DNA of 64,000 nt from the NCBI GenBank assembly GCA_964599565.1, contig CAZRFE010000002.1, forward strand, positions 9,646 to 73,645. Direction: 5' to 3'. This stretch comes from an uncultured Gammaproteobacteria bacterium. GTDB lineage: Bacteria > Pseudomonadota > Gammaproteobacteria > Natronospirales > JAJUFS01. The notes beneath the pieces are model-generated. The model did not search any database. It saw only the letters and a list, made by a program, of their open reading frames with translations, and was not told the origin of the DNA. Within the stretch, counting starts at the first letter, position 1. The number at the start of each line of letters is the position of its first letter. Both the position numbers and the translations under genes were made by a program. Below are positions 4,969-33,689 of the stretch, one piece after another.

Positions 4969-4994
4969 GCGTGTTTCCTTCGCGTGAAACGCGG

Positions 4995-12823: not shown

Positions 12824-12845
12824 GGATGTCCCCTTCGACCCCTTC

Positions 12846-12880
12846 GGAAAAAACGCCCCGCCGTTGTCGGCGAGGCGTTT
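12846..12880 (-). terminator. Rho-independent terminator downstream of the M2 peptidase gene
   Basis: The minus strand reads aaacgcctcgccgacaacggcggggcgttttttcc, a GC-rich hairpin followed by a T-run. Confidence 0.5.
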
Positions 12881-12905
12881 CGCTTTCGTTCTTGTCTTTA
12901 CGAGA

Positions 12906-14843: not shown

Positions 14844-14981
14844 GGCGATTTCCTGTTGTTGCAGTCGGGCCGGAAAAATGCGTTCGAGTGTATTCCGCGC
14901 CGCGTTGCGCGACAAATCAGGCATGCGGCGACGCAAAAGAAAAGGCCGCCCGGGGGCGGCCTTTCCGTAAGGCGTGACGGG

Positions 14982-16490
<1,509 letters not shown>

Positions 16491-16716
16491 TTCCCCTGAA
16501 AAATCAACGTATTTGGCTGTAACCGGTTAAATGCGACGCCCAAGGATTCCCGCTTCTATCGGCCGCGTCAACTTTGTAACGCTGCAACAATCCGTGAAAT
16601 GCCGTGGATTCTGGGCCCTGGCGCCACCTATTCGGGGGATCGAGTGCGTGAATCACCTTGCCGCAGTCGGGCCACCCCCTTATAACGGCTGCCTGTCGAA
16701 CGAACGGAGATATCCG

Positions 16717-19665
16717 ATGCGCACCTGGCTTTCCTTGCTCGTCATCGCCGTCGCCGCGGCCGGCTGCAGCCGCCCCGACGCGCCCGAAAAGGCACCGGAT
16801 ACGGCGGCGCTCCAGCGCGGAAACGGCATCTTCAGCCAGCCTTACCTGGAAACGACGCTCGAGAACGGGCTGAAGGTGATCATCGTGCCGACGGACTACC
16901 CCGATGTCGTCACGCTGCAGATTCCCGTGCAGACCGGCTCGCGCAACGAAGTGGAACCCGGCAAGTCAGGTTTCGCGCATTTCTTCGAGCACATGATGTT
17001 CCGCGGCACGGAACAGTATCCGGCCGAGGTATACCGCGAGATTCTCAAGAACGCCGGTGCCGACCAGAACGCCTACACCTCCGACGACCTCACGAACTAC
17101 CACGTGACGTTCACGAAGGCCGATCTTGAAACCGTCATCAGGCTCGAAGCCGACCGCTTCCGGAATCTTGAATACACGGAAGACCAGTTCCGCACCGAAG
17201 CGCTCGCAGTGAAGGGCGAGTACCTGAAGAACGCCGCGAACCCCGTCTCGAAGATCTTCGAGCGCATCCGCGATCTCGCCTTCGAGACGCATCCCTACGA
17301 GCACACGACGATCGGCTTCTTCGAGGACATCGAGAACATGCCCGAGCAGTTCGCGTACTCGCACGAATTCTTCGACCGCTGGTACACGCCGAAGCAGACG
17401 ACGGTGATCCTCTCCGGCGACCTCGACCCCGCGCGCACGCTTGCACTCGTCGAACAATATTGGGGCGGCTGGCAGACCGGCGAAGACAAGGCCATCGACA
17501 TTCCGCAGGAAGGCGCGCCGGCAGGACCGCAGTACGAACACATCCAGTGGGAATCGCCGACGCAGCCCTGGGTGGTGGTGGCGTTCCGCGGCCCGGCGTT
17601 CGACGCCGCGGCGAAGGACATGCCGGCGATGGATCTCATCGGCGCGCTGTATTTCTCGGATACATCTGATCTCTACCGCGAACTCGTGATCGAGAAACAG
17701 CTCGCGGACAATCTCTCGACGTATTTTCCGAACCGCAAGGATCCGAACCTGCTGATGGTTCTCGCGCGGCTGAACACGCCGGATGCAGCGCGCGAAGTCA
17801 GCGGACGCATTCTTGAAACGCTCGCGCGCGCACGCTCCGAGCTCGTCGATGCACAGAAGCTCGCGGACACGAAGTCCAACCTGAAGTACGCGTTCGCCGC
17901 GGCACTCGACAACTCCGAGGCGATCGGTGCAACGCTCGCGGGATTCGCGCATTTCGAGCGCAACCCGGTCGAGACGGTCAACACGCTCTACGGCACGTAC
18001 GACGCACTGACCGCGAAGGACCTGCGCGACTGCGCGAACCGCTATTTCGTCGATGCGAGCCGCACGATCATCACGCTGTCGAACACCGCATCGCTCGGCA
18101 TGAACGATCTGCCGTCGCTTGACGGGATGGTCGCGCAGCGAAGCGAAGCCGCGAACGCCCCATCCGCGGCAGGCGATGCGTGGAGCGATGCCGCGAACCG
18201 CGCGGCGATTGCAGAACGGAGAAATCCCGCGCCTGCGGATATCCAGACCGTCGAGCTGCAGGGCAACGCGGATCTCGTCGACGTCAACATCCTGTTCAAG
18301 GTGGGCGCTGCGCAGGACCCGGCCGGAAAGAAAGGTCTCGCCGCGCTGACAGCGATGATGGTTTCGCAGGGCGGCACGAAGTTCCATGACATCAACGCGG
18401 TGAATCGCGCGCTGTATCCGCTGGCGGCGGGTTTCATGCCGCAGGTCGACAAGGAGATGACCTCGTTCCGCGGTACCGCCCATCGCGACAACCTCGATGC
18501 GTATTACGCGGTGATCTCCGAGCAGCTGCTGAATCCCGGCTGGCGCGAGGAAGACTTCCAGCGCATCCGCACGCAGATGCAAAACGGCATCCGCACGAAC
18601 CTGCGCGGCAACAACGACGAGGAATTCGCGAAGGAAGCGCTGTATGAAACCATCTACGGCGATGCGCACCCGTACGGCAGCTACAACGGCGGTCATGCGG
18701 CCGACCTCGCAGCGCTCACGCTCGATGACGTGAAGCTTTTCTACGCGAAGCACTACACGCCGGCGAATCTCGTGCTCGGACTCGCCGGCGGATACACGGA
18801 CGAATTCCGCGAACGCATGATCGACGATCTCGCCGCGCTGCCGCAGGGCGGTGAAGCGGAGCTTGCGCTTCCGGCACCATCGGCGATCGACGGCAACCGC
18901 GCGCTCATCATCGAGAAGGACACGCAGGCTGTTGCAGTGTCGTTCGGTTTCCCGATCGACGTCGTGCGCGGTGACGGCGACTGGGTTGCGCTGTGGCTTG
19001 CGCGGAGCTGGCTCGGCGAGCATCGCTCCTCGAACAGCCATCTCTACCAGCGCATCCGCGAACTGCGCGGCATGAACTACGGTGATTACGCATACATCGA
19101 GTACTTCCCGCGCGGCATGTACCAGTTCCAGCCTGATGCGAATCTCGGCCGCCACCAGCAGATCTTCCAGGTCTGGCTGCGCCCGCTGCGCTCGAACAAC
19201 GACGCGCACTTTGCAACGCGCGTCGCGATCCACGAAATCGGCAAGCTGATCGAGAACGGCATGACGAACGAGGAATTCGAAGCGACGCGCAATTTCCTCG
19301 ACAAGTACGTGGCGCAGCTTGTCAGCACGCAGGGCCGCCAGCTCGCTTATGCAATGGATTCGCGTTACTACGGCATCGATGCGTTCACCGATTACGTGCG
19401 CAACGGTCTCGCGGAACTGACGCCGGAGAATGTCAACGCCGCGATACGCCGTCACCTGCGGACGGACAACATGCAGTTCGTCTACGTGACACGGGACGGC
19501 GGAGACCTGCGTGAAAGGCTCGCGGGCAACGTGCCGTCACCGATGCAGTACGGCGCCGACATGCCGGCTGCGGTGCTCGCGGAAGACCGCGTCATCGAGA
19601 CGCTGGATGTCGGCATCGACGAGAAGGACATTCGCACCGTTCCCGCGGAACGCCTGTTCGAATGA
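16717..19665 (+). CDS. M16 (pitrilysin) family zinc peptidase, tandem M16 units, lipoprotein
   Basis: The internal ATG at 16717 gives MRTWLSLLVIAVAAAGCS, a lipobox. It has the inverted zinc motif HFFEHMMFRGT (HxxEH) and a second inactive-type M16 half. Confidence 0.85.
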   Translation: MRTWLSLLVIAVAAAGCSRPDAPEKAPDTAALQRGNGIFSQPYLETTLENGLKVIIVPTDYPDVVTLQIPVQTGSRNEVEPGKSGFAHFFEHMMFRGTEQYPAEVYREILKNAGADQNAYTSDDLTNYHVTFTKADLETVIRLEADRFRNLEYTEDQFRTEALAVKGEYLKNAANPVSKIFERIRDLAFETHPYEHTTIGFFEDIENMPEQFAYSHEFFDRWYTPKQTTVILSGDLDPARTLALVEQYWGGWQTGEDKAIDIPQEGAPAGPQYEHIQWESPTQPWVVVAFRGPAFDAAAKDMPAMDLIGALYFSDTSDLYRELVIEKQLADNLSTYFPNRKDPNLLMVLARLNTPDAAREVSGRILETLARARSELVDAQKLADTKSNLKYAFAAALDNSEAIGATLAGFAHFERNPVETVNTLYGTYDALTAKDLRDCANRYFVDASRTIITLSNTASLGMNDLPSLDGMVAQRSEAANAPSAAGDAWSDAANRAAIAERRNPAPADIQTVELQGNADLVDVNILFKVGAAQDPAGKKGLAALTAMMVSQGGTKFHDINAVNRALYPLAAGFMPQVDKEMTSFRGTAHRDNLDAYYAVISEQLLNPGWREEDFQRIRTQMQNGIRTNLRGNNDEEFAKEALYETIYGDAHPYGSYNGGHAADLAALTLDDVKLFYAKHYTPANLVLGLAGGYTDEFRERMIDDLAALPQGGEAELALPAPSAIDGNRALIIEKDTQAVAVSFGFPIDVVRGDGDWVALWLARSWLGEHRSSNSHLYQRIRELRGMNYGDYAYIEYFPRGMYQFQPDANLGRHQQIFQVWLRPLRSNNDAHFATRVAIHEIGKLIENGMTNEEFEATRNFLDKYVAQLVSTQGRQLAYAMDSRYYGIDAFTDYVRNGLAELTPENVNAAIRRHLRTDNMQFVYVTRDGGDLRERLAGNVPSPMQYGADMPAAVLAEDRVIETLDVGIDEKDIRTVPAERLFE

Positions 19666-20003: not shown

Positions 20004-20684
20004 TCAGTGACGTCGCGAAGCGTGTGCCAGCGTACGCCCGGACCTGTCCTCGCCGCAGACCGTGCGCACCGTTGCTGAAAGATCGCGCAGCGCGACAACC
20101 CTTGGCGTGACGATGCCGCGATGCGCGGGCAGCGCAATGGCGTAGATGCCTTCCGCCGGGAAATCGAGCCGGTAATCCATGATGTAAGGCTGTGTGTAAC
20201 GCGTGCCGCGCACGCTGCCCGGCCGGTCGACGTAGACCAGCATGGTGCTTGCCGCGGTGCTGGCGCGAAGGCCGGTGCGGTAGTTGTCGCATGCCGGATT
20301 GTCGATCGCCGGTTCGTAGAAAGCGCCGATGCGTGCAATGCGCAATCCGCGCGGGGACGCAAGCTCGCCGGGGTTCGCGTCATCGCTTGCCGCGAGGCGC
20401 GCATGCCGCTCGACATCGGCCGACAGCGCATCCAGCGGTATGCGTACTTCGTCGCGTCCCGGCTTCGAGCGGAACAGTTCGACGTCGCTGGTCTTGCCGA
20501 GCAGCCGGCCGGGAATCGGCTTCAGGAACAGGCTTCCCTCCGGAACATGCACGCCGCGCTCGATGGTGATCACGAAATCGGATTGCGCGGGCAGGATACG
20601 TGCCTCCTGCCCGGTGCAGCCGCTCACCAGGTACGCGATGAAAAAAGGCACTGACGCTCGTGCAATGCTTGATGCCCTGCGCAT
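20004..20684 (-). CDS. Hypothetical lipoprotein
   Basis: MRRASSIARASVPFFIAYLVSGCTGQE contains a lipobox (LVSGC). No recognisable family. Confidence 0.6.
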   Translation of the reverse strand: MRRASSIARASVPFFIAYLVSGCTGQEARILPAQSDFVITIERGVHVPEGSLFLKPIPGRLLGKTSDVELFRSKPGRDEVRIPLDALSADVERHARLAASDDANPGELASPRGLRIARIGAFYEPAIDNPACDNYRTGLRASTAASTMLVYVDRPGSVRGTRYTQPYIMDYRLDFPAEGIYAIALPAHRGIVTPRVVALRDLSATVRTVCGEDRSGRTLAHASRRH

Positions 20685-20918
20685 GGTGCGCAGCGGGCGT
20701 GGCAGACGCATCGAATCCGGCTCCGTCGACAGGAAGAACTTGCCGGCGGCGCTGCGAGGGTGTCCAGGGAAGCGCGCAACGCCGCTGCAGCTTCACGCTA
20801 CGCGGATGCGGGATACGGGAAATACGCGCGACCGATGATCGGCCGCGGCAGGATGCGGGAGAAAAGCCGGCGGATTACAGGATCAACGGAGGAAACTGAG
20901 TGCTTCTGCTCAGCAGGT

Positions 20919-21689
20919 TCAGGCGTCGTCGCGCTCGCGTTCACGCTTCTGCGCTTCGACTTCCTGCCAGCCGCGCACGAACGTCCGGCTCATGACGATG
21001 CCGATCTCGTAGAGTGCGTACATCGGCAGCGCGAGCAGCGTCTGCGAGATGACATCCGGCGGGGTGAGGAACATGCCGATGACGAAACAACCGAGCAGCA
21101 CGTAGGCTCGCTTCTCGACGAGTGCCGTCGGTGTCGTGAAGCCGCTCCACACGAGCAGGACTGTCGCGATCGGCACTTCGAACGCGACGCCGAAGGCGAA
21201 GAACATGGTCAGCACGAAATCGAGGTATTCGCTGATGTCCGTCGCCATCAGCACGCCTTCGGGCACGACGGCAGTCATGAAGCTGAACACCATCGGCAGC
21301 ACGAACAGGAATGCGAACGCAACGCCTGCGTAGAAGAGCGCGATGCTGGTAACGAGCAGCGGCGCGAACAGCCGTTTCTCCTGCTTGTACAGTCCGGGCG
21401 CGATGAACGCCCATACCTGGAACAGAAGGTACGGCATGGCGATGAAGATCGCGATGACGAATGCAAGCTTGAACGGCGTCAGGAACGGTGTCGCGACGTT
21501 CGTCGCGATCATGCTTGCGCCTTCGGGGAGATAGTCGCGCAGCGGTCCCGCGATCAGCGAGAACAGCCGTCCTGCAAACGGCGCAAGCACCGCGAACACG
21601 ATGACGACCGCGACGACCGCACGCAGCAGGCGCGAGCGCAGTTCGTTGAGATGCGCAAGCAGGCTGTCGCGCCGCTCGACGCCGCTCAC
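20919..21689 (-). CDS. tatC: Twin-arginine translocase subunit TatC
   Basis: LLAHLNELRSRLL…FKLAFVIAIFIAMPYLLFQVWAFIAPGLYKQEKR gives full-length TatC similarity. Confidence 0.95.
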   Translation of the reverse strand: MSGVERRDSLLAHLNELRSRLLRAVVAVVIVFAVLAPFAGRLFSLIAGPLRDYLPEGASMIATNVATPFLTPFKLAFVIAIFIAMPYLLFQVWAFIAPGLYKQEKRLFAPLLVTSIALFYAGVAFAFLFVLPMVFSFMTAVVPEGVLMATDISEYLDFVLTMFFAFGVAFEVPIATVLLVWSGFTTPTALVEKRAYVLLGCFVIGMFLTPPDVISQTLLALPMYALYEIGIVMSRTFVRGWQEVEAQKRERERDDA

Positions 21690-21898
21690 TGGTCTTTCCC
21701 GTCGCGTTCTTCGCGCGCGGACTTTTCCTCGCGCTCGACTTCGCGTTCAAGTTCGCTGCGCACGGTGGCGAGCGTTGCCTTCGCGCGGCCGGCGAACCGG
21801 CCGAGCGTGCGCATGATGCCGGGCAGCCGCTCGGGGCCTGCAATGACGAGCGCGAGCACGGCGATGAGCACGAGCTCGCTGAAACCGACGTCGAACAC
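21686..21898 (-). CDS. tatB: Twin-arginine translocase subunit TatB (short, 70 aa)
   Basis: MFDVGFSELVLIAVLALVIAGPERLP is the TatB N-terminal signature. A charged amphipathic tail follows. The stop overlaps the tatC start. Confidence 0.8.
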   Translation of the reverse strand: MFDVGFSELVLIAVLALVIAGPERLPGIMRTLGRFAGRAKATLATVRSELEREVEREEKSAREERDGKDQ

Positions 21899-21901
21899 GG
21901 G

Positions 21902-22102
21902 TTACTTCTCGTCGTCCGCGTCACGCCGCTCGATGTTGCGGCGATGCTGCTCTTCCTCGCCGTCCTTCATCGAATCCTTGAAACCCTTCACCGCGCCGCC
22001 GAGATCGGAGCCGATGTTCTTCAGTTTCTTCGTGCCGAAGATCAGCACGACGATCACGAGAATGATGAGCAGCTGCCAGATGCTGATGCCGCCGAATCCC
22101 AT
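21902..22102 (-). CDS. tatA: Twin-arginine translocase subunit TatA
   Basis: The internal Met gives [42 protein letters not shown]. The long N-terminal extension in the ORF track is spurious. Confidence 0.9.
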
Positions 22103-22167
22103 GTTGTTTCTCCTGCCTGGTGTGTTGCCTGTCCGGACGGACAGGGCGATCGATGTTCGCGCGGATG

Positions 22168-22935
22168 TCACAGACGAATGTCGAATCCGCGCATGGCGAG
22201 ATATTCCTTCACGCCGCTGACGGTGTGCTCGCCGGAATGAAACACGCTCGCGACCATGACGCCGTCGGCGAGCCCCGCGCCGAGTACTGACGCGATGTCC
22301 TCCGGTTCGCCCGCACCGCCGGCGACGATCAACGGCACGGTGCTGATCGCGGCGGCCGTTTCCACGAGCAGGGTGTCGAAACCCTTGCGCGTGCCGTCGC
22401 GGTCGAGGCTTGTCAGCGCAATCTCGCCCACGCCGTAATCCGCCAGCCGTTCGATCCACGTGCGTGCGTCCATGCCGGTCGCTTTCCTGCCGCCGTGCGT
22501 GAGAACTTCCCACGTCGTTTCCGCGCCCTTCTTCCGCCGCACGTCCACGGCGCCGACGATGCATTCGCCGCCGAAACGGTCGACGGCGCGCGGCACGAGC
22601 TCGGGGTCGATCACCGCGGCGGTGTTCAGCATGACCTTGTCGGCGCCCGCGTTCAGCATGCGCCTTACGTCCTGGCAATTGCCAATGCCGCCACCGGCCG
22701 TCACCGGCACGAACACGCGCTCGGAAATGCGCGACAGCACGCCGGCGAGCACGTCGCCGCGATCGCCGCCGCCGGTGACGTCAAGCATGGCGAGTTCGTC
22801 CGCGCCCTGCTCCTCGAACGCGCGTGCAACGGCCACGGGGTCGGCGCGGTCCTCGACATCCTGCATGCGGATGCCCTTCACGACACGGCCCTTGACGATG
22901 TCGAAACAGGGAATGATGCGGCGGGCAACGCCCAT
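22168..22935 (-). CDS. hisF: Imidazole glycerol phosphate synthase cyclase subunit HisF
   Basis: [53 protein letters not shown] and ASVFH are all present, so the canonical HisF motifs including both catalytic Asp are intact. Confidence 0.9.
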
Positions 22936-22936
22936 G

Positions 22937-23638
22937 TCAGCGCGCGTCCTCGACAAGGCGCCGCGCCGCGGCCATATCCATGTCGCGCAAGGCGCTGTTG
23001 ACGATGACGCCTGCCACGGAAAGCGCGCACGCAGCTTCCAGCGCGGCGCGCGAATCGATGCGGCCGCCGACGAAGATGTCCACGCTGACGGCTTCCGCGA
23101 TCTCGCGCACCCGCGCCTCGTCCAGCGCGGCTGGCGCTCCTGCCCCGTCCACGTCCTGGTAGACCAGTCCATCCACGCCATCCGACTGGAAATGCCCGGC
23201 GAGATCGACGAGATCATGGTTGGAAAGCTTGGAATGCGCATCGCCGATCAGCCGGCCGTCGCGAACCTTCATGCCGACGAGGATGTGACCGGGAAACTCC
23301 AGGCACAGGTCCTTGAGCACGTGCGGGGCGCTGGCAGCGCGGTGTCCGAGCACAAGCCAGTGCGCACCGGCATCAAGATGCGCCTGCACGTGATCCTCCT
23401 CGCGCACGCCGCTCGCGACCTGCAGCGAAACGCCGTCCATGTGCCGCGCCAGGCGTTCGACCAGTGCAAGGCCCGCCGGCGCCTCGCTCGCAAGGCTGTC
23501 TTCATCCACGAGCTGCATGCGCGTGATGCCCGCCGCCGCGAGCCGCGCGGCGAGGTCTTCCGGCGTTTCACGGTGCGGCTGGCCATCGGGCCCGACGATC
23601 TGCCCTTGCTTCAGCGCAAGTTGAGGTATCAGCAGCAT
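22937..23638 (-). CDS. HisA-like (beta/alpha)8 protein, divergent, with catalytic Asp positions substituted
   Basis: It sits between hisH-like and hisF. The overall HisA/HisF-fold pattern is present (MLLIPQLALKQGQIV, LQVASGVR, WLVLGHRA, LVYQDVDGAG, FVGGRI, GVIVNSAL). Ala replaces the beta1 Asp and Lys replaces the beta5 Asp. Confidence 0.7.
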   Translation of the reverse strand: MLLIPQLALKQGQIVGPDGQPHRETPEDLAARLAAAGITRMQLVDEDSLASEAPAGLALVERLARHMDGVSLQVASGVREEDHVQAHLDAGAHWLVLGHRAASAPHVLKDLCLEFPGHILVGMKVRDGRLIGDAHSKLSNHDLVDLAGHFQSDGVDGLVYQDVDGAGAPAALDEARVREIAEAVSVDIFVGGRIDSRAALEAACALSVAGVIVNSALRDMDMAAARRLVEDAR

Positions 23639-23672
23639 CTTCCACTCCCCTTGAACGGTTTCGTCTTTCGCG

Positions 23673-24284
23673 TCATTCCGCAGGCTCGCCGTTCCCGTTG
23701 ATGAAATTCGCGAGGAACCGCAAGCCATTGTCATGGCTGACTTCCGGGTAGAACTGCACGCCGACGAAGCGCTCCCGCGCCAGCACGGCGGGAAATTTCT
23801 CGCCGTGCTCGGTCGTCGCCATGACGAGATCTCCCGCCGCCCGCGCACGGCGCCGGTGCGCGAAATAGAACCAGGCATCCTGTGGCACGCCGTCCCAGCA
23901 GGCGTGTCCGCTGCAGCAATGCACGCGGTTCCAGCCCATGTGCGGCAGGCGCACGTCCGCGCTGTCGCCGGCGTTCAGCGGCAGCGTCTCGAAATCCATG
24001 AGGCCAAGTCCCTGCCTGCCGAGCGCGTGCATGCCGACGCTGATGGCGAGCAGCGGTTTCTCGCGCATGAGTTCGGGAAGTAGATCGGCGATGCCGAGCC
24101 GGCGCAGTTCGTCCACGCAGTCGTTCAGCTTGCCGCCGCCCGGCAGCACGACGCAGTCGGCGCGGCGCAGGGCGTCGGGGTCGGAACAGCGAAAGACCGT
24201 CGCGCCACCGCCCGCCTTGAGCAGGGCTTTCTCCACGGCCTGCAGGTTGCCTAGGCCGTGATCGATGATGGCGACGCGGGACAT
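23673..24284 (-). CDS. HisH-like glutamine amidotransferase-fold protein with a non-canonical triad (Ser/Tyr/Glu)
   Basis: MSRVAIIDHGLGNLQAV, LPGGG, LPHMGWN and FYFAH are HisH-like. The elbow reads LLAISVGMH (Cys to Ser) and the C-terminus reads GVQFYPEVS (His to Tyr). Confidence 0.75.
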   Translation of the reverse strand: MSRVAIIDHGLGNLQAVEKALLKAGGGATVFRCSDPDALRRADCVVLPGGGKLNDCVDELRRLGIADLLPELMREKPLLAISVGMHALGRQGLGLMDFETLPLNAGDSADVRLPHMGWNRVHCCSGHACWDGVPQDAWFYFAHRRRARAAGDLVMATTEHGEKFPAVLARERFVGVQFYPEVSHDNGLRFLANFINGNGEPAE

Positions 24285-24406
24285 GATGAATTCCGATAGG
24301 GATGGTTCGGAGCGTGAAAGGAACCGGAGGTTGTGGCGCAGCAACGGTCAGTGACGGATGCGGCTAGTCTATTACGCCCCATCCGGAAGGCAAAGGTTTG
24401 GCGCAA

Positions 24407-24844
24407 TCACGATGCGAGCCAGAACGTGACGGGGCCGTCGTTGACGAGGCTGACCTGCATGTCCGCGCCGAAACGCCCGGTGGCGGTCCGCACGCCGCTG
24501 GCCGCCGCCGCGCCGCAGAGCAGTTCGAACAGCCGACGCCCCGCATCCGGCGACGCCGCCGGCGTGAAGCTTGCGCGCGTGCCCTTGCGCGTGTCGGCAG
24601 CGAGCGTGAACTGCGGCACCAGCAGCAGCTCGCCGCCGATGTCACGCACGCTCAGGTTCATGCGGCCGTCGCCGTCCGCGAACACGCGGTAGCCGAGGAG
24701 GCGTTCAAGCAGGCGTCGCGCATCGGCGTCGGTGTCGTCCTTCTGCACGCCGACGAGCACCAGCAGGCCGCGGCGGATGGTGGCAATGGTTTCATCGGCA
24801 ACGCGAACCTGCGCGGATTCCACCCGCTGCAGCAACCCGATCAT
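24407..24844 (-). CDS. dtd: D-aminoacyl-tRNA deacylase
   Basis: [15 protein letters not shown]…RGLLVLVGV…MNLSV…[24 protein letters not shown] is full-length Dtd, 145 aa. Confidence 0.9.
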
Positions 24845-25788
24845 CCGAGCAATGCCTTCAGCCGGTCCACGGCGCGCAGCAGTGCCGCGGTGATGCCCGG
24901 CTCTGTCGCGGAATGGCCCGCATCCGCGACCCATTCGAACGCCGCCTCCGGCCAGGCAAGATGCAGCGCCCATGCCGCCTCCGGCGGGCACACCATGTCG
25001 TAGCGGCCCTGGATGATCGCGCCGGGCAGGTGGCGGATGCGGTGGATGTCACGCAGCAACTGGTCCGGCTCGAGGAAACAGCGGTTGATGAAGTAATGCA
25101 CTTCCAGGCGCGCGAGCGCGGCGGCCCGGTCGGGCTCGGAAAACCGGCGGATGGCGTCCTCGTCCGGCCGCAGGGTGGAGGCGCGCGTCTCCCAGATCGT
25201 CCAGGCGTGCGCGGCGCGGTTGCGCACCTCCGGGTCCGGATGATCCAGCATGGCCGCGTAGGCGTTGACCAGGTTCTCGCGCTCGGCCACCGGCACGGGC
25301 GCGAGGAAGTCGGGGTAATGCTCGGGATAGATCTGCGGCGCGCCGTGGTAATAGAACCAGTCGAACTCGGCTTCGCGCGCAAGGAAGATGCCGCGCAACA
25401 CCAGCGCCGTGACGCGCGCGGGGTGTTTCTCGGCATAGGCGAGCGACAGCGTCGAACCCCAGCTGCCGCCGAACAGCGCCCAGCGCTCGATGTCCAGCGT
25501 CTCGCGGATCGCTTCCATGTCATCGACAAGATGCCAGGTGGTGTTCGCGCCGGTTTCCGCAAAGGGCGTGGAGCGGCCGCAGCCGCGCTGGTCGAACAGC
25601 ACGATGCGCCAGAACGCCGGATCGAAGAAGCGCCGGCTGCGCGCATCGCTGCCCCCGCCCGGCCCGCCGTGCACGAACAGCACCGGAACGCCGTCGGGAT
25701 TGCCGCACTCCTCCACGTATATCGTGTGCCCCTCGCCAACCGGCAGCATGAAATGCCGGTACGGCTCGATCTCGGGATACAGCTGCAT
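24841..25788 (-). CDS. pip: Prolyl aminopeptidase (proline iminopeptidase, S33)
   Basis: LYPEIEPY…[11 protein letters not shown]…[11 protein letters not shown]…[13 protein letters not shown]…HYF are present. The internal Met start is at 25788. Confidence 0.9.
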
Positions 25789-26136: not shown

Positions 26137-26955
26137 ATGTCCGGACATGACTGCCTGAACTGCGGAACACGCCTGCACGGTCCCTGGTGCCATACCTGCG
26201 GACAGAAGCAGATCGCACCTGAAGACCGCACGCTGAAAGCGTTGCTCGGCGAACTTTTCAGCGCTCTCACCGATGTCGATGGCCGCGTGATTCGTTCCTT
26301 TCACTGGCTGCTGTTCCGCCCGGGCCGGCTCGCGCACGATTACCTTCACGGCATCCGCGCGCGTCATCTCTCGCCCGTCTCGCTGTTCCTTGCCGTCAAC
26401 GTGCTGTATTTCTTCGCGCCCAGCCTGTCGGACTTCAACCTGCCCCTGCACGACCACCTGCACGGGCATTTTCATTCCGCGTTCGCGAACATGCTCGTCG
26501 ACGCACGGCTCGCCGAACGCAACACCGACCTTGATACCTACGAGGACATCTTCCATGCAGAGGAAAACAACCTCGCGAAGCTGCTGATACTGTTTCACGT
26601 GCCCCTGCTGGCCGCGGGTCTTTGCCTGCTGCACTATCGCTGCCGCCGCCCCGCTGCGGATCATGTGCTGGTGGCATTCTGGTTCATGGCATTCGCGCTG
26701 CTGCACCTTCAACTCACGCCGCTGCTGCTGCTTGCCTGCGCCTGGCTCGTGCAGGCCACACGGTTTTCACAATGGCTGCTCAACATCGTGCTGCTCGCGC
26801 CGCTGCTTGCCTGGACTTTCTTCCTGCTCAAAGGCGCGTACGCCCAGGGCAACCGGCTGGCGGCCATCAAGACGCCGCTCGTCATCGGCGTCGCGCTGGG
26901 ATCGCATCTCGTTTACCGCGCTATCCTGTTTCTTGTCACTTTCGCGCGCACCTGA
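26137..26955 (+). CDS. DUF3667-like membrane protein with an N-terminal zinc-ribbon
   Basis: The N-terminus is CLNCGTRLHGPWCHTCG (CxxC…CxxC). A conserved LLFRPGRLAHDYLHGIRARHLSPVSLFL segment and several TM helices follow. Confidence 0.7.
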   Translation: MSGHDCLNCGTRLHGPWCHTCGQKQIAPEDRTLKALLGELFSALTDVDGRVIRSFHWLLFRPGRLAHDYLHGIRARHLSPVSLFLAVNVLYFFAPSLSDFNLPLHDHLHGHFHSAFANMLVDARLAERNTDLDTYEDIFHAEENNLAKLLILFHVPLLAAGLCLLHYRCRRPAADHVLVAFWFMAFALLHLQLTPLLLLACAWLVQATRFSQWLLNIVLLAPLLAWTFFLLKGAYAQGNRLAAIKTPLVIGVALGSHLVYRAILFLVTFART

Positions 26956-26980
26956 ACGCGCGCCCAACCGGAGAGACACG

Positions 26981-28081
26981 ATGAAACGCCGAGACTTCGT
27001 CAAGGCACTGGGCGCAGGCTCGCTGCTTGCAGGCGGGCTCGCCGCCTGCGGCAGGAAGCAGGATGCGGATGCCGGCAGCGCCGCTCGCAGCAACGAGACC
27101 TTCACCTGGCGCATGGTCACCACCTGGCCGGAAAACTTTCCGGGACTCGGCACGGGTGCTGCGCGCCTCGCGGATGCGATCACCGCGATGTCCGGCGGGC
27201 GTATCCAGGTGAAGGTCTACGCCGCCGGCGAACTCGTGCCTGCACTTGAAGCATTCGACGCGGTATCGCAGGGCACGGTCGAGCTCGGTCACGGCGCCGC
27301 GTATTACTGGAAAGGCAAGGCGCCTGCCGCGCAGTTCTTTGCCGCTGTTCCCTTCGGCATGAACGCGCAGGAAATGAATGCCTGGCTGTATTACGGCGGC
27401 GGCATCGATCTGTGGAAGAAAGTCTACGAGCCGTTCGGCATCCTTCCCGCACCGGCCGGCAACACCGGCGTGCAGATGGGCGGCTGGTTCAACAAGGAAA
27501 TCGCGAGCGTCGCCGATCTTGCGGGACTGCGCATGCGCATTCCGGGACTCGGCGGCGAAGTGCTTGAGCGCGCCGGCGGCGTGCCGGTGACGCTGCCCGG
27601 CGGCGAGATATTCACCTCGCTCAAGACCGGCGTGATCGATGCCACCGAGTGGGTTGGTCCGTGGAACGATCTCGCCTTCGGCCTGCACCAGGCGGCGAAA
27701 TACTATTACTACCCCGGCTGGCATGAAGCGGGCTCCACGCTCGAATGCCTGATCAACAGGACGGCGTTCGAGAAGCTTCCCGACGACCTGCGCGCGATCG
27801 TGCTGCGCGCGTGCGAAGCCATCAACCTCGACATGCTCTCGGAATTCACCGCGAAGAATCCCGGCGCGCTCGATGCGCTCAGGAACGAACATGGCGTCGA
27901 CGTGCGGCCGTTTCCCGCCGAAGTCATGCAGCGGCTGAAATCGATCTCGCGCGACGTGCTCGCGGAACTTGCAGCATCCGATCCGCTTGCGAAGGAAGTG
28001 CACGATTCCTATTTCGCGTTCTTCGCGAAGGTGCGCGCGTGGCACGAGGTTTCGGAGCGCGCTTACTTCGAGATGCGATAA
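26981..28081 (+). CDS. TRAP transporter substrate-binding protein (DctP family), Tat signal
   Basis: The ATG at 26981 follows GGAGAGA. MKRRDFVKALGAGSLLAGGLAAC contains a twin-arginine motif. The body is DctP-like (WRMVTTWPENFPGLGTGA…). Confidence 0.85.
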   Translation: MKRRDFVKALGAGSLLAGGLAACGRKQDADAGSAARSNETFTWRMVTTWPENFPGLGTGAARLADAITAMSGGRIQVKVYAAGELVPALEAFDAVSQGTVELGHGAAYYWKGKAPAAQFFAAVPFGMNAQEMNAWLYYGGGIDLWKKVYEPFGILPAPAGNTGVQMGGWFNKEIASVADLAGLRMRIPGLGGEVLERAGGVPVTLPGGEIFTSLKTGVIDATEWVGPWNDLAFGLHQAAKYYYYPGWHEAGSTLECLINRTAFEKLPDDLRAIVLRACEAINLDMLSEFTAKNPGALDALRNEHGVDVRPFPAEVMQRLKSISRDVLAELAASDPLAKEVHDSYFAFFAKVRAWHEVSERAYFEMR

Positions 28082-28097
28082 CGCAGCCGCGTGACAG

Positions 28098-29459
28098 TTA
28101 CAGCGCGCCGGGCAGCCATGTGGCAAGCGCCGGCCACAGCGCGACGATCGCGAGTACCAGCAACTGGATGGCGACGAACGGCACCACGCCGCGATAGATG
28201 ACGCCGGTGGTGACTTCCGCGGGTGCTACGCCACGCAGGTAGAAGAGCGAAAAGCCGAACGGCGGCGTGAGAAACGATGTCTGCAGGTTGAGCGCGACGA
28301 GCACGCCGAGCCAGACCGGATCGACGCCCATCGCAAGCAACGCCGGACCGACAATCGGCACGACGACAAACGTGATCTCGATGAAGTCGAGCACGAAGCC
28401 GAGCAGGAACATCACCAGCATGACGACGATGAGCGCGCCGGTGACGCCGCCGGGCAGATCCGACAGCAGCGCGCGCACGGCATCGTCTCCACCGAAGCCG
28501 CGGAACACGAGCGAGAATATCGACGCGCCGATCAGCACGAGGAACACCATGCTCGTGATGCGCATGGTGCTGCGCATGACCTCGTGCAGCATGTCCACGC
28601 TGAACTGGCGGTACGCAAGCGCGAGCAGCAGCGCGCCGACGGCGCCCACCGCCGCGGCTTCCGTCGGCGTTGCAACGCCGGCGATGATCGAGCCGAGCAC
28701 CGCGACGATCAGCAGCAGCGGCGGCAGCAGCGCCTTCACGATCTGCCTTCCGAGCGGCCGCGCTTCGCCGTCCGCCATCGCCGGCATGCGCTGCGGCGAC
28801 AGCACCGCGACTGCGCCGAGGTACACCGCGAACAACGCGACCAGCAACAGGCCGGGCAGCAGCGCGCCGAGGAAAAGATCGCCGACGGAAACCGTCTCCA
28901 CCGAAAAGCTTCCCTCAAGGCGCTGCGATTCCTGGTACGCCGTCGAGATCACATCGCCGAGCAGCACGAGAACGATGGACGGCGGAATGATCTGCCCGAG
29001 CGTGCCGGCCGCCGCGATGGTGCCCGCCGACAGCGCGGGATCGTAACCGCGCCGAAGCATCACGGGCAGCGAAAGCAGACCCATCGTCACGACCGTCGCA
29101 CCGACGATTCCCGTGCTTGCGGCAAGCAGCGCACCGACCATCAGCACCGACAGGCCGAGCCCGCCGCGCAGCCAGCCGAACAGCCGCGCCATGGTGTCGA
29201 GCAGTTCCTCTGCGATGCGCGAGCGTTCCAGCACCACGCCCATGAACACGAACAGCGGCACGGCGACAAGCGTTTCGTTCGTCATGATGCCGAAGACGCG
29301 GTTCGCAACCGTATCAAGCAGGAAGAGATCGAATCCGCCCGCCATCCAGCCGATGCCCGCGAAGATCAGCGCGACGCCGGCGAGCGTGAACGCAACCGGG
29401 TAACCGGCGAGCAGCAGCACGATGACAGCGCCGAACATCGCAAAGGCAAGCCACGTCAT
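28098..29459 (-). CDS. TRAP transporter large permease (DctM)
   Basis: 453-aa polytopic protein with full-length DctM-like sequence. It overlaps dctQ by 4 nt. Confidence 0.9.
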   Translation of the reverse strand: MTWLAFAMFGAVIVLLLAGYPVAFTLAGVALIFAGIGWMAGGFDLFLLDTVANRVFGIMTNETLVAVPLFVFMGVVLERSRIAEELLDTMARLFGWLRGGLGLSVLMVGALLAASTGIVGATVVTMGLLSLPVMLRRGYDPALSAGTIAAAGTLGQIIPPSIVLVLLGDVISTAYQESQRLEGSFSVETVSVGDLFLGALLPGLLLVALFAVYLGAVAVLSPQRMPAMADGEARPLGRQIVKALLPPLLLIVAVLGSIIAGVATPTEAAAVGAVGALLLALAYRQFSVDMLHEVMRSTMRITSMVFLVLIGASIFSLVFRGFGGDDAVRALLSDLPGGVTGALIVVMLVMFLLGFVLDFIEITFVVVPIVGPALLAMGVDPVWLGVLVALNLQTSFLTPPFGFSLFYLRGVAPAEVTTGVIYRGVVPFVAIQLLVLAIVALWPALATWLPGAL

Positions 29460-29959
29460 CCGCCATTCCTTCGCAGCACATCGATGGAACGCAGCAGCAA
29501 CGCGATGCCCTGCAGCGCGATCAGCACCGCGGTCACGGGAATCACGGTTTTAAGGAGATAGACCCACGGCAGCCCGCCAGGCTCGCGCGACGCTTCCAGC
29601 ACACGCCATGATGCGGCGACGTAATCGAGGCTCGTGACGAACAGCAGCGTCGCGAACGGCAGCAGCAGCAAGATCGTGCCGGCGATGTTCACGCACGCGC
29701 GCCGGCGCGGGCCCCAGCGATGGTAGAAGACATCGACGCGCACGTGCGCTTCATGCTTGAGCGCGCAGGCCGCACCGAGCATGAACACGAACGCGTGGAA
29801 GTACGTGACGGACTCCTGCATCGCGATGGATCCGGCGCCGAACGCATAGCGCATCACGACGATCGCGAACGTGACCAGCACCATGGCGAGCGTGCACCAC
29901 GCAATGCCGCGTCCGATCCATTCGTTCAATGCATCGATGAGATCCGCGGCGCGCATCAC
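29456..29959 (-). CDS. TRAP transporter small permease (DctQ)
   Basis: 167 aa with 4 TM segments, immediately upstream of and overlapping dctM. Confidence 0.8.
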   Translation of the reverse strand: MMRAADLIDALNEWIGRGIAWCTLAMVLVTFAIVVMRYAFGAGSIAMQESVTYFHAFVFMLGAACALKHEAHVRVDVFYHRWGPRRRACVNIAGTILLLLPFATLLFVTSLDYVAASWRVLEASREPGGLPWVYLLKTVIPVTAVLIALQGIALLLRSIDVLRRNGG

Positions 29960-30687
29960 AGCTCGAGCATCAGTTCGCGTTCTTCGCGCGACGGTTCGAA
30001 CCCGCGGCCGCCGTAGTGATCGAAGATCGCCTGCACGACCTCGTCGGGCGTTTCCGCCATCGTGAGCAGGCCGAGATCCGCAGGATCGATCATGCCTTCG
30101 CCGGCGAGCGATTCGCGGAACCAGTCGAGCATTCCCTTCCAGAACGTCGCCTTCACGAGAACGACGGGAATGCGCCGGCTCTTGCCGGTCTGGATGAGCG
30201 TGAGAATCTCCGCGAGTTCATCGAGCGTGCCGAAGCCGCCGGGCATCACGATGTACGCCGAGGCGTACTTCACGAACATGACCTTGCGCGAGAAGAAATG
30301 GCGGAAGTAGAGCGCGATGTCCTGGTAGGCGTTTGCCGCCTGCTCGTGCGGAAGCTGGATGTTGAGCCCGACCGACGGCGATTTTCCCTGCGACGCGCCC
30401 TTGTTCGCCGCTTCCATCAATCCCGGTCCGCCGCCGGTGATGACGGAAAAGCCCGCGTCCGACAATGCGCGCGCGATCGCGACCGTGAGCTCGTAGTCCG
30501 GATGCTCGGGCTTCGTGCGCGCAGAACCGAACACGCTCACCGACGGCCGGATGGTGACGAGCTGCTCATAGCCTTCCACGAACTCGGCCATGATCTGGAA
30601 GATCTTCCACGACTCGCGCGTCAGGCTTTTCTCGTGCTCCGCCGTGCGGTGCAGGCGTTCGTGAAACTTCTCGTCGCGTTGATTCAT
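29956..30687 (-). CDS. LOG-family (TIGR00730) nucleotide phosphoribohydrolase-like protein
   Basis: VSVFGSAR…VITGGGPGLMEAANKGA…YIVMPGGFGTLDELAEILTLIQTGK carries the PGGxGTxxE signature. The stop overlaps the dctQ start. Confidence 0.85.
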   Translation of the reverse strand: MNQRDEKFHERLHRTAEHEKSLTRESWKIFQIMAEFVEGYEQLVTIRPSVSVFGSARTKPEHPDYELTVAIARALSDAGFSVITGGGPGLMEAANKGASQGKSPSVGLNIQLPHEQAANAYQDIALYFRHFFSRKVMFVKYASAYIVMPGGFGTLDELAEILTLIQTGKSRRIPVVLVKATFWKGMLDWFRESLAGEGMIDPADLGLLTMAETPDEVVQAIFDHYGGRGFEPSREERELMLEL

Positions 30688-32217: not shown

Positions 32218-32221
32218 CCGT

Positions 32222-33673: not shown

Positions 33674-33689
33674 GCGAAACCTCGCGCCT

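What the first reader, a model, noticed from the sequence alone, without database searches (positions are those of the whole stretch)
22937..24284. HisH-like and HisA-like genes with substituted catalytic residues beside an intact-looking hisF, strung onto tatABC
The minus-strand order is hisH-like, hisA-like, hisF, tatA, tatB, tatC.

The HisH-like protein keeps HisH hallmarks (IIDHGLGNL, LPHMGWN). It reads PLLAISVGMHALG where HisH glutaminases have G-I-C-L-G-M-Q, so the nucleophile Cys is Ser. It reads GVQFYPEVS where they have Q-F-H-P-E, so the triad His is Tyr and the Glu is kept.

The HisA-like protein begins MLLIPQLALKQGQIV where HisA has I-P-A-[IL]-D-L-x-x-G, so the beta1 catalytic Asp is Ala. 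It has LVGMKVRDG where HisA has L-D-[AV]-[RK], so the second conserved Asp is Lys.

HisF keeps both catalytic Asp (CFDIVKG, GAVDVRR) and its phosphate-binding motifs. It also keeps the residues I recall as the ammonia gate (ARRII, DELAMLD, GADKV, GVGEI).

The unrelated class-I amidotransferase at 4264-4968 retains GICLGAQ and FHPE, so this is not a general sequence-quality artefact. Both ORFs are full length without frameshifts. No hisB, hisI or hisE is adjacent.

Possible readings are pseudo-enzyme partners of HisF, a neofunctionalised paralogous set, or early decay of histidine biosynthesis.
Basis: partly seen in the sequence, partly recalled or inferred. Interest (0 to 1): 0.6.

Follow-up and report, generated by a model that had tools for sequence, protein, structure and literature searches.

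The report
Dead HisH and HisA kept beside HisF
In a small group of uncultured soil-type Gammaproteobacteria, two histidine-pathway enzymes (HisH and HisA) have lost their catalytic residues yet are kept intact by selection next to an intact-looking HisF, so they are pseudoenzymes or repurposed proteins, not decaying genes.

Summary
Alignments to solved structures put Ser at the HisH nucleophile Cys and Tyr at the triad His. They put Ala and Lys at the beta1 and beta5 catalytic Asp of HisA. HisF keeps every catalytic and ligand-binding residue checked.

These are not strain lesions. About 30 sequence clusters of each protein, from several MAGs, share the losses. All nine distinct relatives whose DNA was fetched have the same gene order as the window.

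These are not paralogues. Close canonical relatives have pip-dtd-(fnr)-hisB-hisH-hisA-hisF-hisI-hisE-tatABC. This clade has pip-dtd-hisH*-hisA*-hisF-tatABC. So these are the native genes in place, and hisB, hisI and hisE are missing from the locus.

These are not decaying genes. dN/dS is 0.08-0.34, like the neighbouring housekeeping genes.

All three proteins, HisF included, changed sharply on the stem of the clade.

Most likely HisH* is a non-catalytic partner still docked on HisF, comparable to the dead glutaminase domain of CPS1. HisA* is a remodelled barrel with a new conserved pocket.

I could not test whether the organisms still make histidine.

The parts
23673..24284 (-). hisH* : HisH-derived pseudo-glutaminase (203 aa). 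Nucleophile Cys is Ser and triad His is Tyr. Gln-binding Q88 is His and the E96 loop is deleted. The HisF-docking residues are kept.
   Evidence: TIGR01855 135 bits, cutoff 105. Register from PDB alignments. Family statistics. AF2 pLDDT 91.6; Foldseek TM 0.88 to V. cholerae HisH.
22937..23638 (-). hisA* : HisA-derived (beta-alpha)8 barrel (233 aa). It lacks the beta1 and beta5 catalytic Asp. Loop 1 is shortened and the phosphate motifs are altered. New invariant polar residues lie on the catalytic face.
   Evidence: PF00977 99.7 bits, but best HisA equivalog model 86 bits against cutoff 243. Register. Family statistics. AF2 pLDDT 89.2; TM 0.83-0.86 to HisA/PriA.
22168..22935 (-). hisF : cyclase subunit (255 aa). 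Every catalytic, ligand-binding and gate residue checked is kept, but many strand and N-terminal-face positions are remodelled. Its ATG lies one base after the hisA* stop codon.
   Evidence: TIGR00735 273.8 bits, cutoff 294.55. PDB alignments. Clade against canonical comparison. Sequence read.
24285..24406 (-). 122-bp spacer between dtd and hisH*. In canonical relatives this position holds fnr (opposite strand) and hisB.
   Evidence: Synteny by tblastn. NCBIfam on L005 and L018. Sequence read.
22103..22167 (-). 65-bp spacer between hisF and tatA. In canonical relatives this position holds hisI and hisE.
20919..22102 (-). tatA (21902-22102), tatB (21686-21898) and tatC (20919-21689). These are the downstream genes of the same conserved gene string.
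24407..25788 (-). dtd (24407-24844) and the proline iminopeptidase-type hydrolase pip (24841-25788). These are the upstream genes that anchor the synteny with canonical his loci.

Best explanation
hisH* and hisA* are the native, positionally orthologous hisH and hisA of an uncultured gammaproteobacterial clade. At the base of that clade the local his operon was dismantled: hisB, hisI and hisE are gone from the locus. At the same stage HisH lost its glutaminase machinery and HisA lost its ProFAR-isomerase machinery. Since then both proteins, together with HisF, have been held by ordinary purifying selection. They are therefore pseudoenzymes or repurposed proteins, not pseudogenes.

Inferred mechanism for HisH*. 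It still folds as HisH and still docks on the N-terminal face of the HisF barrel. It cannot bind or hydrolyse glutamine. Whatever HisF does is therefore independent of glutamine, either using free ammonia or not using ammonia at all. The parallel is the dead glutaminase-like domain of ammonia-dependent CPS1.

Inferred mechanism for HisA*. It keeps the barrel and the beta6 acidic residue. Its catalytic face is rebuilt around newly invariant S48, R100, R126, H135 and D164. It therefore probably binds a different ligand, or acts as a non-catalytic subunit, and does not isomerise ProFAR.

Shown: register, clade-wide loss, orthology by position, purifying selection, the joint burst of change, and confidently predicted HisH-like and HisA-like folds. 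Inferred: HisH*-HisF docking, the ligand role of HisA*, and the ammonia route.
For: Register of the lost residues against solved structures.

Losses across the clade. HisH position C84 is N in 24, D in 4 and S in 2 of 30, never Cys. Q88 is H/L/Q. E96 is deleted in 30 of 30. K181 is I/V/T. H178 drifts (H19, Q10, Y1). E180 is kept. HisA beta1 Asp is A12/R7/T6/K3 and beta5 Asp is N25/K2/S2/T1. Six residues of loop 1 are deleted, W is replaced by H in 30 of 30, and GGG, SGG and GRALYEG are altered.

Docking residues kept. HisH N12, G122, W123, N124, Y138 and H141 are retained, as are HisF D98 and R249. The hN12-fD98 contact and the contacts of HisH helix alpha1 with HisF are described in PMC8115485.

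Orthology by position. The window and all nine distinct relatives fetched (L001-L003, L081, L083, L087, L165-L167) carry dtd-hisH*-hisA*-hisF-tatABC. Relatives with canonical genes have hisB before hisH and hisI-hisE after hisF.

Selection. dN/dS in the closer pairs is 0.14-0.34 for hisH*, 0.08-0.20 for hisA* and 0.12-0.20 for hisF. The neighbours give 0.12-0.26.

Stem burst. The ratio of clade-to-outgroup identity over outgroup-to-outgroup identity is 0.67 for hisH, 0.51 for hisA and 0.58 for hisF. It is 0.88-1.00 for dtd and tatABC.

HisF. It keeps D11, K19, D130, both phosphate sites and gate residues R5 and E167 in 32 of 32 representatives (E46 in 28, K99 as K or R in all). It changes Q123 to E, position 101 from G/A/S to M/I/L, V127 to G and A220 to G.

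Folds. The models are confident and match HisH and HisA.

Precedents. CPS1 has a dead Cys-to-Ser glutaminase domain (PMC4655335). HisF alone works with ammonium (PMC11350729). IGP can be made without HisH in vivo (PMC5919458).
Against: No direct evidence that HisH* binds HisF or that HisA* binds anything. Complexes could not be modelled and no coordinates were available to me.

The perfect conservation of the PRFAR-type active site of HisF implies that a PRFAR-like substrate still exists in these cells. That fits poorly with a dead HisA and absent hisI and hisE, unless other copies lie elsewhere in the genome, which I could not check.

HisA* has newly conserved acidic residues on the catalytic face (E46, D164, D18). 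A migrated catalytic base, and so residual isomerase activity, is not excluded.

dS is high (0.5-2) for many pairs, so the dN/dS values are approximate.
Confidence: 0.6

Rival explanations
1. Histidine biosynthesis still runs. hisB, hisI, hisE and a working hisA sit elsewhere in the genome, either relocated or acquired. HisF is a genuine cyclase that uses free ammonia. HisH* survives only as a structural or allosteric subunit of HisF, and HisA* has a side role.
For: The catalytic and PRFAR-binding residues of HisF are kept in 32 of 32 representatives. HisF alone works with ammonium. IGP can be made without HisH in vivo. Loss of the glutamine-coupled allostery would explain why 40 of 108 otherwise invariant HisF positions changed while the active site did not.
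Against: Four functions (HisB, HisI, HisE, HisA) would have to be supplied from elsewhere, although all were present at this locus in relatives. If a whole foreign his operon had been acquired, the native hisF should also have become dispensable. No other his gene was found among the 40 long ORFs scanned in the window or in the 10-kb flanks of nine related loci.
Confidence: 0.3
2. HisA* is still a ProFAR isomerase. Its catalytic base has moved from beta1 to another strand or loop (E46, D164 or D18), so only the textbook residues are missing.
For: The beta6 acidic residue, which I take to correspond to S. enterica D176, is kept as D or E. E46 (27 of 30) and D164 (29 of 30) are conserved in the family where canonical HisA has Leu and Ser. 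Both lie at the C-terminal ends of strands in the model.
Against: The beta1 position varies freely between Ala, Thr, Arg, Lys and Ser, which is unlikely in a tight ProFAR pocket. Both phosphate-binding motifs are changed, six residues of loop 1 are deleted, and the substrate-region Trp is His. The best HisA model score is about a third of its cutoff.
Confidence: 0.12
3. These are genes on their way out. They have been dead since the pathway was lost and survive only because they lie in the transcript that also carries tatABC.
For: hisB, hisI and hisE are gone from the locus. Lost catalytic positions drift: HisH H178 is H/Q/Y and HisA beta1 is A/R/T/K.
Against: No frameshift or truncation appears in about 30 clusters of each protein down to 51-53% identity. 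dN/dS is 0.08-0.34, like dtd, pip and tatC. Many residues are invariant only within the family. A spacer role would not conserve the protein sequence.
Confidence: 0.04
4. The substitutions are a sequencing or assembly artefact, or lesions private to one strain.
For: None found.
Against: The same features recur in independent assemblies from NCBI, ENA, JGI and Logan. Another GATase in the same window has an intact Cys, His and Glu.
Confidence: 0.01

Closest known systems
Canonical imidazole glycerol phosphate synthase HisH-HisF, with HisA (for example T. maritima 1GPW and 7AC8; S. enterica HisA)
   Same: Same folds, with TM 0.83-0.88 to solved HisH and HisA. Same gene order and the same chromosomal position as in related Gammaproteobacteria. 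The HisF active site is identical. The HisH docking residues N12, W123 and Y138 and HisF D98 and R249 are kept.
   Different: HisH lacks the Cys nucleophile, the Gln-binding Q88 and E96, and K181. HisA lacks two of three catalytic acidic residues, part of loop 1, and has altered phosphate motifs. hisB, hisI and hisE are missing from the operon. Many HisF strand and N-terminal-face positions and Q123 are changed.
[quoted passage not shown]
   Same: It is a class-I amidotransferase module made inactive by replacement of the catalytic Cys (Ser294 in human CPS1). It is retained as part of a synthase that uses free ammonia (PMC4655335). The window's HisH* carries the same Cys-to-Ser change.
   Different: CPS1 is a fused eukaryotic enzyme whose ammonia dependence has been shown experimentally. 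Here the module is a separate bacterial subunit, the replacement is mostly Asn or Asp, and ammonia use by HisF is only inferred.
HisZ, the catalytically inactive HisRS paralogue that regulates HisG (recalled from general knowledge, not tested here)
   Same: It is a pseudoenzyme kept as a partner of a histidine-pathway enzyme.
   Different: HisZ arose by duplication and works in an active pathway. HisH* and HisA* arose in place from the orthologues, with no duplicate seen, in an operon that has lost three other genes.
HisH2/HisF2 paralogues of glycan amidation clusters (WbuY/WbuZ, AglZ family)
   Same: They are second-function relatives of HisH and HisF. The window's HisF hits WbuZ (217 bits) and the AglZ/HisF2 family (176 bits).
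   Different: Both scores are far below the cutoffs of 299.7 and 310. No glycan-synthesis or asparagine-synthase-like genes are nearby. The locus is the native his-tat locus.

Membership tests
HisH (IGP synthase glutaminase subunit, TIGR01855) | Sequence and fold membership in the HisH branch of class-I amidotransferases | tested here: met
   TIGR01855 135.4 bits against cutoff 105.4. Foldseek top hits are all HisH, TM 0.88.
HisH (IGP synthase glutaminase subunit, TIGR01855) | Cys-His-Glu catalytic triad (hC84, hH178, hE180) | tested here: not met
   The window has Ser, Tyr and Glu. In the family C84 is N24/D4/S2 and H178 is H19/Q10/Y1. The triad is defined in PMC8115485.
HisH (IGP synthase glutaminase subunit, TIGR01855) | Glutamine-binding residues (Q88, E96, S/T142; residue roles recalled, not tested) | tested here: not met
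   Q88 is H25/L3/Q2, E96 is deleted in 30 of 30, and S/T142 is R/H.
HisH (IGP synthase glutaminase subunit, TIGR01855) | Residues that dock on HisF (N12, W123, Y138), and gene adjacency to hisF | tested here: met
   N12 30/30, W123 30/30, Y138 29/30. The gene lies two genes from hisF in every locus. Physical binding was not tested.
HisH (IGP synthase glutaminase subunit, TIGR01855) | Glutaminase activity stimulated by PRFAR-bound HisF | not testable with these tools
   This needs an enzyme assay.
HisA (ProFAR isomerase, TIGR00007 / PRK13585) | (beta-alpha)8 His_biosynth fold | tested here: met
   PF00977 99.7 bits. AF2 pLDDT 89, TM 0.83-0.86 to S. enterica HisA and PriA.
HisA (ProFAR isomerase, TIGR00007 / PRK13585) | Score above the equivalog cutoff | tested here: not met
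   Best score 86.3 bits against cutoff 243; TIGR00007 77.6 bits against 228.95.
HisA (ProFAR isomerase, TIGR00007 / PRK13585) | Catalytic Asp on beta1 and beta5, plus the beta6 acidic residue | tested here: not met
   beta1 is A/R/T/K and beta5 is N/K/S/T; only the beta6 D/E is kept. Solved HisA and PriA structures with trapped ligands carry D7N, D176A or D11N (entry titles).
HisA (ProFAR isomerase, TIGR00007 / PRK13585) | Two glycine-rich phosphate-binding sites and the long mobile loop 1 | tested here: not met
   GGG is VSG, SGG is AGR, GRALYEG is NGAL--H, and six loop-1 residues are deleted in 30 of 30.
HisA (ProFAR isomerase, TIGR00007 / PRK13585) | Position between hisH and hisF in the native his locus | tested here: met
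HisF (IGP synthase cyclase subunit, TIGR00735) | Catalytic D11 and D130, loop-1 K19, both phosphate sites, and ammonia-gate residues R5, E46, K99, E167 | tested here: met
   All are present in the window. In the clade they are 32/32, except E46 at 28/32 and K99 as K21/R11.
HisF (IGP synthase cyclase subunit, TIGR00735) | Score above the equivalog cutoff | tested here: not met
   273.8 bits against 294.55. NCBI names two clade clusters (one of them partial) only 'HisA/HisF-related TIM barrel protein'.
WbuZ / AglZ-HisF2 glycan-amidation paralogues | Score above cutoff and a glycan-biosynthesis gene context | tested here: not met
   217.4 bits against 299.7 and 175.7 bits against 310. The neighbours are dtd, tatABC, peptidases and transporters.
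Pseudoenzyme (catalytically dead homologue kept by selection) | Loss of essential catalytic residues, together with purifying selection and conservation across species | tested here: met
   Actual lack of activity is not testable here.

The most novel reading that the evidence does not exclude
The clade no longer makes histidine. The HisH*-HisA*-HisF trio has been taken over for a different job. HisF uses its unchanged bis-phosphate active site on a ligand other than pathway-derived PRFAR, or senses one. Two dead enzymes serve as its regulatory or scaffold subunits. This would be a new function for the imidazole glycerol phosphate synthase scaffold, arising in place from orthologues and not from duplicates.
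Probability: 0.3. Interest if true: 0.8.

Novelty: new variant of a known kind. Interest (0 to 1): 0.6.

Why it matters
Annotation. NCBI's annotation names the clade's HisH* proteins 'imidazole glycerol phosphate synthase subunit HisH', and HisH* passes the HisH model TIGR01855. Metabolic reconstructions of these MAGs will therefore credit a glutaminase, and possibly a pathway, that the sequences cannot support.

Evolution. As I recall, well-known pseudoenzymes such as HisZ arose from duplicates. Here two adjacent orthologues lost catalysis in place, while three operon neighbours were deleted, and were then held by selection. That makes this a natural case for studying how dead enzymes are retained.

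Enzymology. The HisH-HisF pair is a leading model for allostery and ammonia tunnelling. This clade offers a natural complex with a dead glutaminase, with changes at HisF strand positions that I recall line the ammonia tunnel (position 101 G/A/S to Met, V127G, A220G) and with Q123E. It shows which parts of HisF are needed only for glutamine coupling.

Tried and rejected
Artefact or strain lesion: rejected. About 30 clusters of each protein from independent assemblies share the features.

Paralogous second his set: rejected by synteny with canonical loci.

Decaying pseudogenes: rejected by intact lengths and dN/dS.

WbuZ/AglZ-type HisF2 and the archaeal hisAF_rel family (TIGR00734, 17.9 bits against cutoff 179.85): scores far below cutoff and the wrong gene context.

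RNA elements such as a his leader or a ZTP riboswitch: no Rfam hit and no tRNA in the window. The promoter and terminator scan was no better than shuffled sequence.

Other his genes in the window: none found among 40 long ORFs scanned up to about 60.5 kb.

Intermediate lineages, with canonical residues but lost hisB or hisIE, or the reverse: none found in the GTDB genomes, the JGI metagenomes or the protein database. Each of the three families is separated from canonical sequences by an identity gap: 51 to 43% for HisA, 53 to 43% for HisH and 61 to 53% for HisF.

P0207, a 412-aa HisF-like hit: a canonical HisF with an internal duplication, and irrelevant.

Literature searches for dead HisH or HisA found nothing relevant.

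Full report
**1. What is there**

Six genes lie head to tail on the minus strand:
- hisH-like, 23673-24284
- hisA-like, 22937-23638
- hisF, 22168-22935
- tatA, 21902-22102
- tatB, 21686-21898
- tatC, 20919-21689

Upstream are dtd (24407-24844) and a proline-iminopeptidase-type hydrolase, pip (24841-25788). The hisA-like gene has a GGGGAG ribosome-binding site. Its TGA stop is followed one base later by the hisF ATG. The finding's coordinates cover exactly the hisA-like and hisH-like genes.

**2. Register of the catalytic positions**

phmmer alignments to solved HisH chains place Ser at the nucleophile Cys and Tyr at the triad His, with the Glu kept. Alignments to PriA place Ala at the beta1 Asp and Lys at the beta5 Asp. 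HisF aligns end to end with T. maritima and T. thermophilus HisF and with the reconstructed ancestral HisF-LUCA. It has R5, D11, K19, E46, D98, K99, D130, E167 and both phosphate motifs.

The curated models agree:
- HisH-like passes TIGR01855 (135 bits, cutoff 105).
- HisA-like fails every HisA model (best 86 bits, cutoff 243).
- HisF falls just short of TIGR00735 (273.8 bits, cutoff 294.55).

**3. Not a private lesion**

Each of the three proteins belongs to a discrete family of about 30 clusters at 90% identity. These come from uncultured Gammaproteobacteria in NCBI MAGs, ENA, JGI and Logan assemblies. Each family is separated from canonical sequences by a gap in identity:
- HisA-like: 51-80% within the family, then at most 43%.
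- HisH-like: 53-80%, plus one cluster identical to the window's protein, then at most 43%.
- HisF: 61-80%, plus one identical cluster, then at most 53%.

Only three GTDB species representatives and three JGI contigs carry the family, so it is rare.

HisH* in 30 representatives:
- The nucleophile position is Asn in 24, Asp in 4 and Ser in 2, never Cys.
- Q88 is His, Leu or Gln.
- The loop carrying E96 is deleted in all 30.
- S/T142 is Arg or His.
- K181 is Ile, Val or Thr.
- The triad His drifts (H19, Q10, Y1).
- E180 is invariant.

HisA* in 30 representatives:
- The beta1 Asp position is A12/R7/T6/K3.
- The beta5 Asp position is N25/K2/S2/T1.
- Six residues of loop 1 are missing.
- The Trp of DGWSK is His in 30 of 30.
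- GGG is VSG, SGG is AGR and GRALYEG is NGAL--H.

The triad is defined as hC84, hH178 and hE180, and hC84S or hC84A variants serve as non-turnover backgrounds in structural work on the enzyme (PMC8115485).

**4. Orthologues, not paralogues**

tblastn of the window's proteins against fetched loci shows the same order in the window and in all nine distinct relatives fetched (L001-L003, L081, L083, L087, L165-L167). That order is (pip-)dtd-hisH*-hisA*-hisF-tatA-tatB-tatC, followed by an M16 peptidase, a POT transporter and an M2 peptidase.

Relatives with canonical genes have a longer string. NCBIfam confirms each gene in Acidihalobacter and Ectothiorhodospira magna, and tblastn spacing agrees in Thiogranum and others. 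The order is pip-dtd-(fnr on the other strand)-hisB-hisH-hisA-hisF-hisI-hisE-tatA-tatB-tatC.

In the window the place of fnr and hisB is a 122-bp spacer. The place of hisI and hisE is a 65-bp spacer. So the three genes are the native hisH, hisA and hisF, and three pathway genes are missing from this locus. A Pfam survey of 40 long ORFs between about 200 and 60,500 found no other his gene; three ORFs at 60.6-63.7 kb were not scanned.

**5. Under selection**

Nei-Gojobori dN/dS for the closer pairs:

| gene | dN/dS |
|---|---|
| hisH* | 0.14-0.34 |
| hisA* | 0.08-0.20 |
| hisF | 0.12-0.20 |
| pip | 0.12-0.24 |
| dtd | 0.19-0.23 |
| tatC | 0.12-0.26 |

No member is truncated or frameshifted. dS is high, so these values are approximate, but they are far from neutrality.

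Both families also have residues that are invariant only within the family.
- In HisA*: G16, G19, S48, W94, R100, K109, R126, H135, D164 and E230.
- In HisH*: R3, H9, L11, Q15, A16, E18, K19 and others.

**6. A joint burst that includes HisF**

I compared clade-to-outgroup identity with outgroup-to-outgroup identity.

| gene | ratio |
|---|---|
| dtd | 1.00 |
| tatC | 0.96 |
| tatA | 0.93 |
| tatB | 0.88 |
| pip | 0.81 |
| hisH | 0.67 |
| hisF | 0.58 |
| hisA | 0.51 |

Canonical HisF proteins of the outgroups are 82% identical to each other but only 48% identical to the clade's HisF.

Of 108 HisF positions invariant in ten outgroups, 68 are kept in all clade members and 40 are fully replaced. 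With 32 clade and 85 canonical representatives:
- Kept in 32 of 32: D11, K19, D51, G80-82, D98, N103, T104, D130, E167, D176, G177, G202-203, A224, S225, R5 and R249.
- E46 is kept in 28 of 32, and K99 is Lys or Arg in all.
- Replaced: Q123 to E (32/32), position 101 from G/A/S to Met/Ile/Leu, V127 to G, A220 to G, L222 to M, A223 to V/I, V79 to A, S201 to A, L10 to F, and F23 to M/L.

From memory, several of these are inward-pointing strand residues that line the ammonia tunnel, and Q123 faces the HisH active site. I could not check this on coordinates.

**7. Folds**

AlphaFold2 models built with the family alignments are confident.
- HisA*: pLDDT 89.2, pTM 0.88, a regular eight-stranded barrel. 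The best PDB matches are HisA, PriA and HisF, with TM 0.83-0.86.
- HisH*: pLDDT 91.6, pTM 0.90. The best match is V. cholerae HisH, TM 0.88, rmsd 1.8 A.

In the HisA* model, S48, R100, R126, H135 and D164 fall at or just after the C-terminal ends of strands 2, 4, 5 and 6, that is on the catalytic face.

**8. How it most likely works**

HisH*. Shown: it cannot use the textbook glutaminase mechanism and lacks the glutamine pocket. It keeps N12, G122, W123, N124, Y138 and H141, and HisF keeps D98 and R249. The hN12-fD98 contact and the contacts of HisH helix alpha1 with HisF are described in PMC8115485. The W123-R249 hinge is from memory. Inferred: HisH* still docks on HisF as a non-catalytic subunit.

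The closest parallel is CPS1. Its ancestral glutaminase-like domain is inactive because the catalytic Cys is Ser, and the enzyme uses free ammonia (PMC4655335). HisF alone catalyses the cyclase reaction with ammonium salts (PMC11350729). IGP can be made without HisH in vivo (PMC5919458).

HisA*. It has lost the canonical isomerase apparatus but carries a conserved, different polar constellation on the catalytic face. I infer a changed ligand or a subunit role.

**9. What remains open**

The intact PRFAR-type site of HisF argues that a PRFAR-like substrate still exists. The dead HisA and the missing hisB, hisI and hisE argue that the pathway is gone. Two readings survive.

(a) Histidine synthesis continues with genes elsewhere, and HisF is an ammonia-dependent cyclase with a pseudo-glutaminase partner.

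(b) The clade cannot make histidine and the trio has been taken over for another job. The surrounding genes are rich in peptidases and peptide transporters: OPT, M2, POT, M16, S33 and S9. This is weak circumstantial support for an amino-acid-scavenging lifestyle.

A third, less likely reading is that the catalytic base of HisA* has moved to another strand.

The deciding computation is a scan of the complete MAGs for the other his genes.

**10. Novelty**

Full-text searches found no description of catalytically dead HisH or HisA. Pseudoenzymes and dead glutaminase modules are known kinds. A clade-wide conversion in place of two adjacent orthologous pathway enzymes, kept beside an active-looking third, is a new variant of that kind.

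There is also a practical consequence. NCBI's annotation names the clade's HisH* proteins HisH. It names three HisA* clusters and two clade HisF clusters 'HisA/HisF-related TIM barrel protein', and names one HisA* cluster as the ProFAR isomerase itself. Automated reconstructions of these genomes will therefore be misleading.

Noticed in passing
window 10898-19665; also L081, L083, L165, L166 downstream of tatC: A conserved block of peptide-scavenging genes lies next to the his-tat string. It holds an OPT oligopeptide transporter (10898-12823), an ACE-like M2 peptidase (12906-14936), a POT di/tripeptide transporter (14982-16490) and a 1044-aa M16 peptidase (16531-19665). The M16, POT and M2 genes recur in the same order in all clade loci looked at.
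   Followed up: partly
window 4264-6053 (minus strand): A class-I amidotransferase with an intact Cys, His and Glu (4264-4998) overlaps by 4 nt the end of a radical SAM gene (4995-6053). This looks like a two-gene operon of unknown function.
   Followed up: no
L005 7753-8526 and L018 7672-8469 (opposite strand): In canonical relatives an fnr-type regulator sits between dtd and hisB. It is absent from the same place in the dead-HisH/HisA clade, so the deletion that removed hisB also removed fnr.
   Followed up: partly
window 30766-35066 (minus strand): Two tandem TrkH paralogues (30766-32217 and 32222-33673) lie next to TrkA (33690-35066). A LOG/lysine-decarboxylase-like gene (29956-30687) and TRAP transporter genes (26663-29459) follow. 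The same neighbours appear in L081 and L166.
   Followed up: no
window 22460-23701 (+), 20760-22220 (+), 16966-19455 (-): Very long antisense 'shadow' ORFs (413, 486 and 829 aa) overlie hisA*/hisF, tatABC and the M16 peptidase gene. They are typical of 64% G+C DNA and fooled a simple GC3-based gene caller. They are not genes.
   Followed up: yes
window 20004-20711 (minus strand): A 235-aa ORF with no Pfam hit lies downstream of tatC; I suspected a lipoprotein but did not test this. It matches L001 and L002 at 53-56% identity but was not detected in the more distant clade members.
   Followed up: partly
window 44936-45703 (+) and 55329-56048 (+): Bacterial homologues of two families better known from eukaryotes and archaea: TANGO2 (PF05742, 250 bits) and a diphthamide-synthase-type ATP-binding domain (PF01902, 100 bits).
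   Followed up: no
protein P0207 (ENA contig, 2566 bp): A 412-aa canonical HisF carries an exact internal duplication of about 155 residues. It is probably an assembly artefact and is unrelated to the clade.
   Followed up: yes
L001 and L002 HisF (and 4 of 32 clade representatives): The ammonia-gate residue E46 of HisF is Gly in one sub-lineage, and K99 is Arg in 11 of 32. The gate ring may be under weaker constraint than the active site.
   Followed up: partly
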